DNA of 64,000 nt. Source: Amoebidium appalachense. Taxonomy: Eukaryota; Protista; Ichthyosporea. The stretch covers positions 682,001 to 746,000 of the forward strand of contig CAVNZM010000008.1 in NCBI GenBank assembly GCA_963693365.1, given 5' to 3'. Every line of letters begins with the position of its first letter. Positions within the stretch are counted from its first letter, which is position 1. Under the pieces are notes generated by a model. The model saw nothing but the letters and a program-made list of their open reading frames with translations, made no database searches and was not told the DNA's origin. This document shows positions 43,643 to 60,106 of the stretch, one piece after another. Position numbers and translations under genes: made by a program.

Positions 43643-46600
43643 TCATTGTTGGGTGCTGCTGTCTGTTGCTGCCGCCGCTTTTGCCTTTTCAGATTCCTCT
43701 AGTTCCTGTCACAACGTGCAGTCAGCTTGGTGCCCCACATCCCAACTGCAACGAGCACAGCCACACAGCTACCATAAGGATACAAACACCCCCTGACATG
43801 CACACACAAACAGTCACATACTCGCATGCCAAGCACACATGGGTAGGCTATATAGATGCCCAGGCAGCCACACAAAACTTTCAAACAGGCGCTGGGATCC
43901 ACATTTGCACACCACCGAAACAATACTACCTTGAGGTGCATTGTCCATGCCGCATTTCACAAAAAGCCACACCACAACCGCACCCACAGACACACATGCA
44001 CACGCAAGCACGCAGTGACTCCACGCATGCACACAATGACTCTCACTCACTCACGCACGCAAACACGCACACAAACACGCACACACGCACGCCCACATGC
44101 AGCACCACCCACCCAACCACACCCATACACAGACACACCCATAACCCCCCCCCCCCCCCTCCACACACACCCCTCCCCCCCACACACGCACCTTGAGGCG
44201 CCTAGTCCATATCTCCTTGTTAGCCTTGAGGTTGGGGATGCACTCGTCATGCAGCTCGGGGGCAAACTCGGCAAAGATCGCAAACAGCGGCTCAACAATG
44301 AAGTTGATGAAGCTCACCTGTGCGTGTGTATGTGTGTGTGTGTGTGTGGGTGTGGGTGGGTGGGTGGGTGGGGGGGGGGGGGGGGGGGGGGAGGGGAGGA
44401 GGAGAGGGAGAGAAGGGAGGGGTGTAGGGAGGGGGGAGGAGGAGATAAAGGCATAGTGGGCGTTAGAATGGGTTACAGCATGCGATGAACATATTGACGA
44501 CGAACGAACCCAAAGGCAGACAAGCATGCACAAATGAGCATGCATCATAAGCAGAGGGTTATCCTCCGGGGGCCCCCGGGGGGGGGGGGGGAGGGGGGAA
44601 GGGAGGGAGAGAGAGAGGGACAAAGACCGAGGGGGGGGGGGGGGGGGGAAGCCATTGACAGTGCCCGACTTTCTACTCGTTTACTTCCATACGAAACCCA
44701 GCTCACACACTTCGATTACACCTGTGTGGGTCACTCCACAGGTTAGGGGGGGGGGGGGGGGGATAAAGAGAAAGGAGAGAAGGAGAGGAGGGAGGGAGCG
44801 AGAAAGGGGGAGAGTGGGAGAGCAGTAGATCGAGAGAGAGAGAGCGGGAGGAAAGGAGGGAGCGCGGCGTGAGGGAGGGATGAGGGGCGCGGCGTGAGGG
44901 AGGGATGAGGGAGAGTGAACGAGAGAAAGAGGGAGCAAGTCCACTTTGGCAGAGGCACAGTGCGGATGCATTGTGATTGCAAAAGGATGACTAAACATGT
45001 GTGCACGTGCCTGCGTAGGCACACACGTGCACGCGTGCAAGTGCATGAGCTCACCTGGCATTTCTCTATGGGCACGGTGTTGCGGTCACACATGGGGGAG
45101 AGGGCTTGGCCCTTGGTGCGTTCAAGCTGGGTGGCGTCAAGGAACAAGACAACTGCATGACATGGAACCAATCATACCATGGGACACACAATCACCTCAC
45201 GAATCGTACTGTGCACGTAAGTCTTTTACACGACCCCAACCTAGCCCTGAGTCAGTACCCCCCCCCCCCCCCCCCCCCCCCCCCCCCCCCCCCCCCCCAC
45301 ACACACACACACACACAGTCATCTTTCTTGCCACCACACTGCAATGAACACAACCAATTCGAGCGATGTCTTTTTCGCTCTTGCACGCACACTTAACAAT
45401 GCCAACCCACACCAGTACCCCCCCCCCCCCCCCCCTCCATTCCCCCCCCCCCTCCCTCCATCCCCCCCCCCCCTCCATTCCCCCCCCCCCTCCTCCATCC
45501 CCCCCCCCCTCCTCCATCCCCCCCCCCCCCCCCTCCTCCATCCCCCCCCCCCCCCTCCATTCCCCCCCCCCCCCCTCCCCCCTCCATCCCCCCCCCCCCT
45601 CCATTCCCCCCCCCCCCTCCTCCATCCCCCCCCCCTCCTCCATTCCCCCCCCCCCTCCTCCATCCCCCCCCCCTCCTCCTCCATTCCCCCCCCCCCCCCC
45701 CCCTCCTCCATTCCCCCCCCCCCTCCTCCATTCCCCCCCCCCCCCCCCCCCAAAAAAAAAAAGAAAACCAAAAAAAAAAAAAAAAAAAAAAAAGGATACA
45801 TCGCCCTGGTTCCAGAACTCAGCCATGACCCTCTCCGACCAAGCCACGGCCAATGATGTCTGCTTGACCTGGTTGCTGACGTCAGCACAGTGCAGGGCCA
45901 TGCTCAGGATCAGCATGATCGTGCTGTTAGGCAGTGTGCCGATGGCCCCGCCCTTCTCGGCTAGCAGCGTGATTGCACTCTTGAACTTGCCTGCGTGGGT
46001 AGGGTCAGTGGCGTGTGTGCATAGAGTGGGTGGCATGTGCACATGTGCAGGTGTGAGGCATGCCAAGGCTGATGAGAGAGAACACACTGTGCACACATGC
46101 AAATCCACCCACCCACCCACCCACCCACCCACACTCTCTCCCCCTCTGTCACGAATATGTTCACACACATACATGCATATGCGCATGAGCACACACTTAC
46201 ACACGCGCATCACACACACCCACCCACCCACCCACCCACACACTCCCCACCCACATACCACCCAACCATTCACCCACCCAGTCACCACACCGACCCGCCC
46301 ACACCCACCCACCCACCCACCCATACGCACACGCACATACCCGTAAGTTCGAAGTGCAGGCTCATGTCTGTGTTCAGCACCATGTGGATGATCACGGCCC
46401 TCACGTGCCTGAAGTCCTCGGCACTGAGGTTGCCAAAGATGTTGCAGTCGTCTTCCAGAAGAATCTGGAAGGCCTGCATGGAGGTTAGAACGTGTTGTCT
46501 AATAAATGCACTTCAAGAGGACAACAAAATAATGACTTGAAAAAACCGTCCACACAAGGGGGCAGGGGGAGGGGGGAGTGGGTGGATGGGGGGGGGGGGG

Positions 46601-58600: not shown

Positions 58601-60106
58601 AAGAAACTCCCGTACCACCTCCACATAGCCATCAGTCAGCTCCCCGGCCCACTCATCGGATTTGCTCCCATCGGGTCGGGGCCTTTTTCTCTGTGCTCGT
58701 AATTGCTCGTCTATCACTGCAGCTGCAACCTGCATACAGGTGCGTGTTAGTGCAATGGTCAGCAAAGCTACATGGAAAACACAATCAATGAAGATAAGTA
58801 GACACAGGAACGAGACAGAGTAGCAACGTCGAAAAGGCAAACAGGTGGCAGTGGTGGTGGTGCATTCGTGTGCACATATGTGTCTATCTCTCTGTGTGCA
58901 GATTCGTGTGTGTGTGTGTGTGTTGTGTGTGTGTGTGTGTGTGTGTGTGTGTGTGTGTGTGTGTTGTGTGTGTGTGTGGTGTGTGTGTATGTGTCTACTT
59001 CTCTCTTTACACATATCCTCCCTCCCTCCCACTCACCCAGTCCCCTCCTCCCCCTCCTCCCACCCCCCCGCCATCCCCTTCCCCTCCCCCAACAACCCCC
59101 CTCGCCCCCGGCCCTCCCTTCTGTCTGTGTCCGTATATGCCTTTGTGTGTGTGTGTATGTGTGCCTGGGTTTCTCTCTCTCTGTGTGTGTGTGTTGGTGG
59201 TGGTGGTTCGGGGGTGTGGGGTGTGGGGTGGGGGCGGGTGGAGGGAGATGCAGGACTAGGGGCCAAGATGCGGCCCAGCCCCTGGAAGAAGGGCAAAGGT
59301 GGCTAAAGGAAAGGCCAAGAAATAGTATGATGCATGCTCCCGCAAACGACCCCGTGTTTGGTAGAATTTGCTCACACTAACACGGGCAGTGTGAGTACGG
59401 GTGTGTGTTTGTGTATGTGCCGGTGGTGTGCGGCTATGGAGGTGGGTGTCTTTGTGCCCATCGTTGTGTTTGAACCCGTTCACCTTAGTATATGCATAAA
59501 CGTGTGTATGCAGATGTGCATACGTCTCCAAGCATGCATAAATATCTTCAAAGATGTGGTTTTAGGCCTGTGCCTGTGCCTGCGTGCCTCTCTCTCTTCT
59601 CTCTCTCTCTCCCCCCCTCCCCCCCCCCCCCCCCCCCCCCTTCTCTCTGTGTGTCTTTGTGGCCGTGTGTGTGTGTCCTGCATCCGTATGTGTGTGCATG
59701 TGTGTCTATCTGTGTGTGGTGTGCGCTTGTGTATGTGTGGTGTGCGTGCGTGTGCAGGTATAGTTGCATGCACATCATTAACGCGCGGGTGTAAGACCGC
59801 AAGGGTGGCCAAGCTCTTGAATGCAGCTCCCAATCAAGACTTATTGTATGTTCTTTTGTTTGGCCCGTGTGTGAATGTGTCCGTGCCTGCCCGGTGCCTG
59901 CTCGACTCCATCTATCTGGGTTGGCAGCACTTCTAAGGTGCAAGTTATTTGCGCAAGAACGCAAGATGTGGCGACACATTCTCTCACTTGGCGTGCGTCC
60001 AGCCAAAGCAAAAGCAAGCAAGATAGCACAACGAAGCCATAGCACGTACCTCGCCAAATTTGGATATGACCATCTGGCGAAGGCCGTCCAGCAAAAAAGA
60101 CCTCAT
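43643..60106 (-). CDS. H-NOX / H-NOBA(PAS) / PH / class I cyclic nucleotide phosphodiesterase fusion protein, 26 exons, ~1050 aa
   Basis: Manual splicing with GT-AG introns and consistent phases, exons 5'->3': 60106-60050, 58729-58521, 57343-57153, 56881-56637, 56225-56031, 55165-54995, 53850-53717, 53152-53101, 52363-52256, 51499-51375, 51229-51121, 50914-50732, 50519-50422, 50320-50269, 50169-50099, 49605-49554, 49184-49053, 48769-48692, 48343-48236, 47680-47575, 46961-46870, 46473-46341, 45990-45800, 45126-45055, 44317-44192, 43705-43643. Sum is 3153 nt = 1050 aa + TGA, with no frameshift needed. Starts [19 protein letters not shown], ends [20 protein letters not shown]. The short linker exons are less certain than the domain exons. 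Confidence 0.88.
45418..45750. repeat. C-rich tandem repeat (CCTCCAT(T)Cn)n; G-quadruplex-prone on the minus strand
   Basis: Repeated ctccat(t) spacers between C-runs in intron 23 of the PDE gene. Confidence 0.85.
47303..47408 (-). repeat. Second copy of the dispersed repeat, inside a PDE-gene intron
   Basis: tttgaatgcgtcataaaatacgaagtacac...gagtatgcataataagcggagcccatc closely matches 20877-20977. Confidence 0.75.
50099..50914 (-). other. Pleckstrin homology (PH) domain (exons 12-15)
   Basis: [54 protein letters not shown]...[18 protein letters not shown]: the canonical PH pattern (GxL..W..RYFxL...LxYY...PxGxIxL...A-x-T-E-E...W). Confidence 0.9.
53443..53682. repeat. 23-bp minisatellite, ~10 copies
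   Basis: Unit ATTCCCCTRCACATTCACCACAY. Confidence 0.92.
54995..60106 (-). other. N-terminal H-NOX (HNOB) + H-NOBA/PAS sensor module (exons 1-6), homologous to the soluble guanylate cyclase N-terminus
   Basis: Collinear with sGC beta1: [19 protein letters not shown] vs [31 protein letters not shown] vs [23 protein letters not shown] vs FLQNLDALHDHL; SMPIF vs [25 protein letters not shown] vs KAFPFHIIFDRDLVVTQCG; VVRPQ vs LVRPH; FTLNGQVFHF vs [18 protein letters not shown] vs LSDIPLHD. Confidence 0.88.
55443..56016. repeat. 30-bp minisatellite, ~19 near-perfect copies (intron 5 of the PDE gene)
   Basis: Unit CCCCTCACAGTGCCACTATCTCTCTCCACA. Confidence 0.97.

What the first reader, a model, noticed from the sequence alone, without database searches (positions are those of the whole stretch)
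43643..60106. H-NOX/H-NOBA sensor fused to a PH domain and a class I phosphodiesterase: an 'inverted sGC', candidate heme/gas-regulated cNMP-degrading enzyme
Seen: 26 phase-compatible GT-AG exons give one uninterrupted 1050-aa ORF: H-NOX, H-NOBA(PAS), helical linker, PH, and a PDE catalytic domain with complete metal sites. Known: in eukaryotes the H-NOX+H-NOBA module is characteristic of soluble guanylate cyclases, where it is followed by a coiled coil and a cyclase. Bacterial H-NOX proteins partner histidine kinases, chemotaxis receptors or c-di-GMP enzymes. Animal PDE1-11 use GAF, PAS/REC, UCR or calmodulin-binding regulators, and none has H-NOX or PH. I know of no characterised H-NOX-class I PDE fusion. 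Inference: the sGC input module has been rewired to destroy rather than make cAMP/cGMP, analogous to the choanoflagellate rhodopsin-PDE but for NO/CO/heme/redox, possibly membrane-targeted by the PH domain.
Basis: partly seen in the sequence, partly recalled or inferred. Interest (0 to 1): 0.95.

Follow-up and report, generated by a model that had tools for sequence, protein, structure and literature searches.

The report
Guanylate-cyclase sensor module on a phosphodiesterase
One spliced gene, also found in two single-celled relatives of animals, joins the front end of the animal nitric-oxide receptor to an enzyme predicted to destroy cAMP/cGMP instead of making it, but the heme-gripping residues are remodelled, so it is likely not a standard nitric-oxide sensor.

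Summary
The gene is real: minus strand, 26 GT-AG exons, 1051 aa. Spliced contigs support exons 9-24. Full-length orthologs with the same architecture exist in Amoebidium parasiticum (45% identity) and Ichthyophonus hoferi (44%). PH and class I PDE pass Pfam cut-offs; all metal ligands and the invariant Gln/Phe are present; PDE4 is the closest solved family. HNOBA/PAS is clear (E 5e-19). The N-terminal domain gives no Pfam HNOB hit, but it is H-NOX by profile (HHalign 98%) and by fold of the Amoebidium ortholog (sGC beta E 7e-12; H-NOX Z 10-13). His110 and Pro124 are invariant, but the YxSxR clamp (59 of 61 reference H-NOXs) is lost in all three proteins, with Cys in place of Tyr. The sGC coiled coil is absent. 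Best reading: an active PDE with an sGC-derived, probably heme-poor regulatory and dimerisation module. Heme or gas control stays possible (~40%) but is untested. I found no description in 10 literature searches. New variant; interest 0.66.

The parts
60050..60106 (-). Exon 1: Met1 and H-NOX helix A; no N-terminal extension
   Evidence: ortholog P0004 starts at the same Met
58521..58729 (-). Exon 2: H-NOX distal helices (Gly75, Trp78 invariant in three orthologs)
57153..57343 (-). Exon 3: H-NOX helix F with Asn107/His110, Pro124, and the remodelled YxSxR strand with Cys140
56637..56881 (-). Exon 4: end of H-NOX, invariant RRKS (aa 197-200), start of HNOBA/PAS
54995..56225 (-). Exons 5-6 (56031-56225, 54995-55165): HNOBA/PAS domain aa ~219-345; no sGC coiled coil follows
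53101..53850 (-). Exons 7-8 (53717-53850, 53101-53152): weakly conserved linker aa 357-418
   Evidence: 18% three-way identity over aa 346-418
51375..52363 (-). Exons 9-10 (52256-52363, 51375-51499): conserved helical segment aa 419-495, candidate dimerisation or autoregulatory hairpin
   Evidence: 48% three-way identity; helices in a low-confidence model; RNA loose end
51121..51232 (-). Exon 11: Ser/Arg-rich linker with RRKS (aa 527)
50099..50914 (-). Exons 12-15 (50732-50914, 50422-50519, 50269-50320, 50099-50169): PH domain aa ~556-668
   Evidence: RNA joints
49053..49605 (-). Exons 16-17 (49554-49605, 49053-49184): linker and start of the PDE domain
44192..48769 (-). Exons 18-25 (48692-48769, 48236-48343, 47575-47680, 46870-46961, 46341-46473, 45800-45990, 45055-45126, 44192-44317): class I PDE catalytic domain; His781, His785, His821, Asp822, Asp938, Gln989, Phe992
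   Evidence: RNA
43643..43705 (-). Exon 26: C-terminal tail and stop codon
   Evidence: contig lengths run past the predicted stop

Best explanation
A single 1051-aa protein carries the H-NOX+PAS input module of soluble guanylate cyclase on a PH domain and an intact class I phosphodiesterase domain; it is predicted to hydrolyse cyclic nucleotides (likely cAMP), and the module likely works as a heme-poor dimerisation and allosteric unit rather than as an NO receptor. Shown: gene structure, domain order, catalytic residues, H-NOX fold, loss of the YxSxR clamp, loss of the sGC coiled coil, and conservation in three species. Inferred steps: (1) the PAS domains dimerise as in sGC; (2) the conserved helical segment aa 419-495 replaces the coiled coil as the relay to the catalytic domain, in the manner of PDE4/PDE8 upstream helices (analogy recalled); (3) the invariant RRKS at the H-NOX/PAS junction and RRxS sites in the next linker allow PKA-type feedback; (4) the rebuilt pocket (Asn107, His110, Pro124, Cys140) is kept as a thiol-redox or small-ligand site that tunes activity.
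For: PDE: Pfam, motifs, 61% three-way identity, PDE4B best among solved structures for the ortholog (246.9 bits vs PDE1B 222, PDE8A 208, PDE9A 170). H-NOX/PAS homology. Clamp lost: Tyr 59/61, Ser 60/61, Arg 59/61 and N-terminal Gly 61/61 in reference H-NOXs, versus Cys/Gly/Arg in the window protein and no Arg in either ortholog. Precedent: the moth sGC alpha pseudo-H-NOX lacks YxSxR and binds no heme; sGC PAS domains dimerise (PMC8196705, section 6.2 and passages). Heme-free, Cys-based redox sensing by Vibrio cholerae H-NOX (PMC7108781 abstract). RRKS and Cys140 are invariant in a domain with 21% three-way identity.
Against: His110, Pro124, Gly75 and Trp78 are all invariant, and the domain starts at Met1 without the N-terminal extension that, by the structures, blocks the pocket in sGC alpha; both points fit retained heme binding. 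One of 61 bacterial references also has Cys at the Tyr position. The V. cholerae redox site is a zinc site whose position I did not map onto Cys140. The helical segment gave no Pfam or Atlas match. cAMP preference is weaker for the window protein: it has Gln and Ala where PDE4 has Pro and Tyr after the HCAD motif, while both orthologs keep Pro and Tyr; the role of these positions is recalled. No activity was measured; the fold was predicted for the ortholog, not the window protein.
Confidence: 0.5

Rival explanations
1. Non-canonical heme sensor: His110 binds heme loosely, or with help from Cys140, so the PDE reads heme availability, heme redox state, or CO/NO with low heme affinity.
For: His110, Pro124, Gly75, Trp78 and Asn107 invariant in 3 of 3 proteins; Met1 start without a blocking extension; full H-NOX fold with pLDDT about 70-85 over most of aa 1-170.
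Against: The propionate contacts named for heme mimics (Y2, R116, Y135/S137/R139; PMC6225106 passages) have no conserved equivalents across the three proteins.
Confidence: 0.27
2. Canonical gas sensor: stably bound heme binds NO/CO/O2 and switches cNMP hydrolysis.
For: sGC beta subunits are the top structural matches over both domains; proximal His kept; choanoflagellates have NO-binding sGCs and a sensor-PDE, rhodopsin-PDE (bioRxiv 10.1101/2022.02.14.480389 passages).
Against: YxSxR lost in 3 of 3 proteins; no Pfam HNOB hit; the coiled coil through which sGC transmits the signal is not matched.
Confidence: 0.13
3. Vestigial module: the N-terminal domains only stabilise or localise a constitutive PDE.
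For: H-NOX is among the least conserved folded parts (21% three-way identity vs 61% for PDE); the sGC alpha H-NOX is dispensable for regulation.
Against: The whole module is kept in order in three divergent species, PAS at 38% three-way identity, with invariant pocket residues and RRKS.
Confidence: 0.07
4. Two neighbouring genes joined by the annotator.
For: The I. hoferi gene model carries an ATM1-type ABC transporter at its C-terminus, which shows that such merges occur.
Against: The transcriptome-derived A. parasiticum protein aligns over aa 1-1047 at 45% identity; one contig holds 1757 nt upstream of exon 11 and runs into exon 19.
Confidence: 0.03

Closest known systems
Soluble guanylate cyclase beta subunit (human 8hbf_B/6jt0_B; Manduca 9oxn_B/6pas_B; Choanoeca flexa sGC1)
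   Same: H-NOX then HNOBA/PAS in one chain from Met1; best Foldseek matches, E 7e-12; proximal His and Pro kept
   Different: YxSxR lost; no coiled coil; no class III cyclase; output is PH + class I PDE
sGC alpha pseudo-H-NOX (Manduca sexta)
   Same: H-NOX fold lacking YxSxR (PMC8196705 section 6.2)
   Different: No pocket-blocking N-terminal extension here; invariant Cys at the Tyr position; different effector
Cyanobacterial H-NOX (Nostoc 6mx5, Z 12.8, rmsd 4.1, 170 aligned) with neighbouring HNOBA-containing genes
   Same: Best fold match; the 15 best of 61 reference H-NOXs against the three-protein profile come from cyanobacterial loci
   Different: H-NOX and HNOBA were never in one ORF in the sampled loci (0 of 23 HNOBA ORFs); heme motif intact there
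PDE4 (and PDE1/7/8) class I phosphodiesterases
   Same: Catalytic domain, metal ligands, invariant Gln/Phe; PDE4B best match
   Different: Regulatory region is H-NOX-PAS-helix-PH; no UCR or PDE8 Pfam hit
Choanoflagellate rhodopsin-PDE
   Same: Sensor module fused to a class I PDE in a unicellular holozoan
   Different: Light-sensing membrane protein; entries 5vyd/7d7p (recalled as its PDE domain) score only 172 bits
Uncharacterised orthologs P0004 (EukProt EP00123 Amoebidium parasiticum P018296) and P0005 (EP00124 Ichthyophonus hoferi P000374)
   Same: Same architecture end to end, 45% and 44% identity
   Different: No functional name in the source; P0005 has an added ABC transporter, probably a gene-model merge

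Membership tests
Class I cNMP phosphodiesterase (PF00233) | Profile match above curated cut-off | tested here: met
   Exons 20-23 each above 24.8 bits; orthologs 285.5 and 279.6 bits
Class I cNMP phosphodiesterase (PF00233) | Metal ligands His, His-Asp, Asp and catalytic His | tested here: met
   His781, His785, His821, Asp822, Asp938 present in all three proteins
Class I cNMP phosphodiesterase (PF00233) | Invariant Gln and Phe of the purine pocket | tested here: met
   Gln989, Phe992, aligned to PDE4B through the ortholog
Class I cNMP phosphodiesterase (PF00233) | cAMP/cGMP hydrolysis | not testable with these tools
   Needs an enzyme assay
H-NOX heme sensors (PF07700) | H-NOX fold and homology | tested here: met
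   HHalign 98.0%, E 2e-13, score 81.9 vs best of 100 column shuffles 18.3; ortholog model: top six VIA rows are H-NOX, Z 10.1-12.8, 170-176 aligned
H-NOX heme sensors (PF07700) | Pfam HNOB match | tested here: not met
   No hit on exons (E<=1), P0004 (E<=0.1) or P0005 (E<=1)
H-NOX heme sensors (PF07700) | Proximal His on helix F and conserved Pro | tested here: met
   His110 (His in 53 of 61 references) and Pro124 (60 of 61) invariant in 3 of 3
H-NOX heme sensors (PF07700) | YxSxR propionate clamp | tested here: not met
   Present in 59 of 61 references; Cys/Gly/Arg in the window protein, no Tyr, Ser or Arg in the orthologs
H-NOX heme sensors (PF07700) | Heme and gas binding | not testable with these tools
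   Needs spectroscopy
Soluble guanylate cyclase | H-NOX followed by HNOBA/PAS in one chain | tested here: met
   Pfam HNOBA above cut-off in both orthologs
Soluble guanylate cyclase | Coiled coil after the PAS domain | tested here: not met
   HNOBA profile match ends at position 121 of 165, before the helix; a crude heptad scan flagged nothing in aa 335-418
Soluble guanylate cyclase | Class III nucleotide cyclase domain | tested here: not met
   No cyclase hit
PH domain (PF00169) | Profile match above cut-off | tested here: met
   30.1, 41.3 and 36.3 bits vs cut-off 25.1
Phosphoinositide-binding PH domains | Basic K-Xn-(K/R)-X-R motif in strands 1-2 (motif recalled) | tested here: inconclusive
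   Strand-2 Arg invariant; strand-1 basic residue is Arg in the window protein but Leu/Ile in the orthologs
PDE4 / PDE8 families | UCR or PDE8 upstream regulatory domain | tested here: inconclusive
   No Pfam hit and no usable Atlas hit for aa 419-495; resemblance is from recall only; no tree built

The most novel reading that the evidence does not exclude
An 'inverted soluble guanylate cyclase': a heme-, redox- or gas-gated class I phosphodiesterase, using a rebuilt His110/Cys140 heme pocket without the YxSxR clamp, conserved across ichthyosporeans and showing that the sGC input module was present and re-used early in the animal-relative lineage.
Probability: 0.35. Interest if true: 0.9.

Novelty: new variant of a known kind. 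Interest (0 to 1): 0.66.

Why it matters
It adds a regulatory module not described for class I PDEs in the papers I could search, and places an sGC-type H-NOX+PAS unit in Ichthyosporea, which bears on where the animal NO receptor came from. The three-species His/Pro/Cys pocket without YxSxR is a natural experiment on what an H-NOX does after losing its heme clamp, the open question for the sGC alpha pseudo-H-NOX. If heme or gas control holds, it would be a one-protein, gas-controlled cNMP eraser and a possible tool comparable to rhodopsin-PDE.

Tried and rejected
No whole genome is held for the window, so paralogs, NOS and canonical sGC in this organism could not be searched. Word-based homolog searches with single exons found nothing (weak tests). 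PDB sequence searches with exons 2, 3 and 5 gave no H-NOX or sGC hit. P0001-P0003 (3 of 4 hits) are multi-stretch repetitive matches with unrelated Pfam content and were dropped. P0006 (E 2e-3, HNOBA + histidine kinase) shares only part of the N-terminal region. PDB searches with alignments A1 and A2 were swamped by the ABC-transporter tail of P0005. The full-length model was unusable (pLDDT 33.9); in the N-terminal model the PAS part is low-confidence. The Atlas gave HNOB clusters for aa 1-230 at scores 0.76-0.78 (lead only) and nothing usable for aa 400-530. Direct RNA cover of exons 1-8 was not obtained. Run X3 laid nothing (no evidence). Iyer et al. 2003 on HNOB/HNOBA is not held and was not read. 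Four look-ups of earlier findings gave nothing on this architecture. No complex prediction was run and no phylogeny was built, because no eukaryotic sGC or PDE sequence sets were on hand.
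Full report
Gene structure. I rebuilt the gene from the raw sequence. It lies on the minus strand from ATG 60106 to TGA 43643, in 26 exons with 25 GT-AG introns. 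In-frame stops sit just upstream of the ATG. GC3 is similar along the CDS (0.74-0.81). No whole genome is held.

RNA. Three coded runs from one sample and one study were listed; the tool calls them RNA only as a guess. I laid them on 45790-51560, exons 10-23; two runs gave cover and one none. Eight of the 13 introns there are listed as joints with splice-site ends in both runs, and several intronic bins have zero depth. Loose ends match exon 9 and exon 24. Contig coordinates keep constant offsets across the measured exons. In X1, one 2563-nt contig has exon 11 at position 1758 and, by the model, runs to CDS 2293 in exon 19; a 971-nt contig overlaps it by 30 nt and passes the stop. The 1757 nt upstream of exon 11 fit 1487 nt of predicted CDS plus a 270-nt leader. 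In X2 a contig would begin at CDS 406, in exon 3.

Orthologs. HMMER over 1.84 billion representatives with exon 5 returned 4 proteins. Three are repetitive and unrelated. P0004 is a 1045-aa transcriptome ORF of Amoebidium parasiticum, 45% identical to the model over aa 1-1047, with Pfam HNOBA (E 1e-15), PH (2e-10) and PDEase_I (5e-85). A search with its first 500 aa returned 3 proteins among 7991 candidates: itself, P0005 from Ichthyophonus hoferi (44% identity to the model), and a distant HNOBA histidine kinase. P0005 has the same architecture followed by an ATM1-type ABC transporter, probably a gene-model merge. Both genera are ichthyosporeans (class placement recalled; one search lists the order's families). 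The two orthologs are closer to each other (54%) than to the window protein. The window is therefore likely from an ichthyosporean or related holozoan; this is inference. The search is word-limited, so the family may be wider.

PDE domain. Pfam matches are collinear over exons 19-23 and 25. His781, His785, His821, Asp822, Asp938, Gln989 and Phe992 are present in all three proteins. Three-way identity is 61%. Among solved structures PDE4B scores best for the ortholog (246.9 bits), then PDE1B 222, PDE8A 208, PDE7A 186 and PDE9A 170; exon 23 also ranks PDE4 first. cAMP preference is an inference. It is weaker for the window protein, which has Gln and Ala where PDE4 and both orthologs have Pro and Tyr (role of these sites recalled).

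H-NOX and PAS. Pfam HNOB gave no hit on exons or orthologs, so I built profiles from bacterial loci: 61 H-NOX and 22 HNOBA domains. HNOBA matches aa 219-334 at 54.5 bits (E 5e-19; best of 1000 shuffles 7.0). H-NOX matches aa 8-159 at 16.9 bits (E 2.6e-7; best shuffle 6.4). Profile-profile comparison of the three proteins gives 98.0% (score 81.9; best of 100 column shuffles 18.3) and 99.4% for PAS. A model of P0004 aa 1-373, folded without any bacterial rows, shows the H-NOX helix/strand order at pLDDT about 70-85 over most of aa 1-170, with a low-confidence PAS part. Foldseek ranks sGC beta subunits first (E 7e-12) and then H-NOX structures. VIA-align's top six rows are all H-NOX (Z 10.1-12.8, rmsd 4.1-4.9, 170-176 aligned); non-H-NOX fold relatives follow at Z 9.7 and below. 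The Atlas lists HNOB clusters at 0.76-0.78, a lead only. The fold tests concern the ortholog, not the window protein itself.

The heme site is remodelled. His110 (His in 53 of 61 references), Pro124 (60 of 61), Gly75 (61 of 61), Trp78 and Asn107 are invariant in the three proteins. The YxSxR motif, present in 59 of 61 references, is not. The Tyr position is Cys in all three (Cys140), Ser is replaced in all three, and Arg survives only in the window protein. The N-terminal Gly (61 of 61) is lost. One bacterial reference also has Cys at the Tyr position. The review PMC8196705 (passages and section 6.2 read) states that the moth sGC alpha H-NOX lacks YxSxR and binds no heme, but that the structural reason is an N-terminal extension filling the pocket. 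No such extension exists here, which keeps heme binding open. PMC7108781 (abstract only) describes heme-free, Cys/zinc redox sensing by V. cholerae H-NOX. PMC3212528 and PMC6225106 (passages) give the residue roles.

Relay. In sGC the signal passes through a coiled coil after PAS. Here the HNOBA match stops at position 121 of 165, before that helix, and a poorly conserved linker follows (18% three-way). A helical segment at aa 419-495 is the best-conserved non-catalytic part (48% three-way); it has no Pfam or Atlas match, and its likeness to PDE4/PDE8 upstream helices is recalled. RRKS at aa 197-200 is invariant, and each protein has an RRxS in the linker before PH; PKA control is inferred from the consensus only. 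The PH domain passes Pfam, but its strand-1 basic residue is not conserved, so membrane targeting is unproven.

Origin. In the sampled bacterial loci H-NOX and HNOBA are neighbours (22 of 23 HNOBA loci) but never in one ORF, while sGC has them in one chain. A domain swap from a eukaryotic sGC-like gene is the simpler reading. No tree was built, and the reference set held no eukaryotic sGC.

Literature. Ten searches of open-access full text showed no H-NOX-class I PDE fusion; three direct ones returned 0 papers. Most results were seen as listings only. The choanoflagellate NO paper (passages) says chlorophytes were the only protists previously known with metazoan-like sGCs and does not mention ichthyosporeans in its main text; its figures and supplements were not seen and may bear on this. 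PMC8846402 (passages) links bacterial H-NOX to c-di-GMP PDEs through partner proteins. PMC1592074 (passages) adds nothing on this fusion. Subscription journals and InterPro were not searchable.

Verdict. The gas-sensor interpretation is only partly supported. Best explanation: active PDE with a heme-poor sGC-derived regulatory module (0.5); non-canonical heme sensor 0.27; canonical gas sensor 0.13; vestigial 0.07; two genes 0.03. New variant of a known kind (sensor-fused class I PDE); interest 0.66.

Noticed in passing
window 30704-30946 (+): Exon matching Pfam DUF2015, 'fungal protein of unknown function' (E 3e-13), in what is likely a holozoan genome.
   Followed up: partly
P0005 (EP00124 P000374) aa ~1040-1687: The I. 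hoferi ortholog is annotated with an ATM1/ABCB7-type ABC transporter at its C-terminus; probably two genes merged by the annotation.
   Followed up: partly
window 55442-56019: Near-perfect tandem array of a 30-bp unit, 19.2 copies at 99% matches, inside intron 5; also a 23-bp x 10.8 array at 53440-53688 and a microsatellite at 51771-52255.
   Followed up: no
L194: A bacterial H-NOX with Cys at the YxSxR Tyr position but Ser and Arg kept, a natural comparison for Cys140.
   Followed up: no
window 34519-35213 (-): Long candidate exon with a hydrophobic N-terminal stretch, a Pro/Thr-rich linker and a Cys-rich end; no significant Pfam hit.
   Followed up: partly
window 7643-9888 (-) and 27524-30055 (+): Long low-complexity candidate exons (Gln/Pro-rich; Ser/Thr-rich) of unassigned genes; no Pfam hit for those scanned.
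   Followed up: partly
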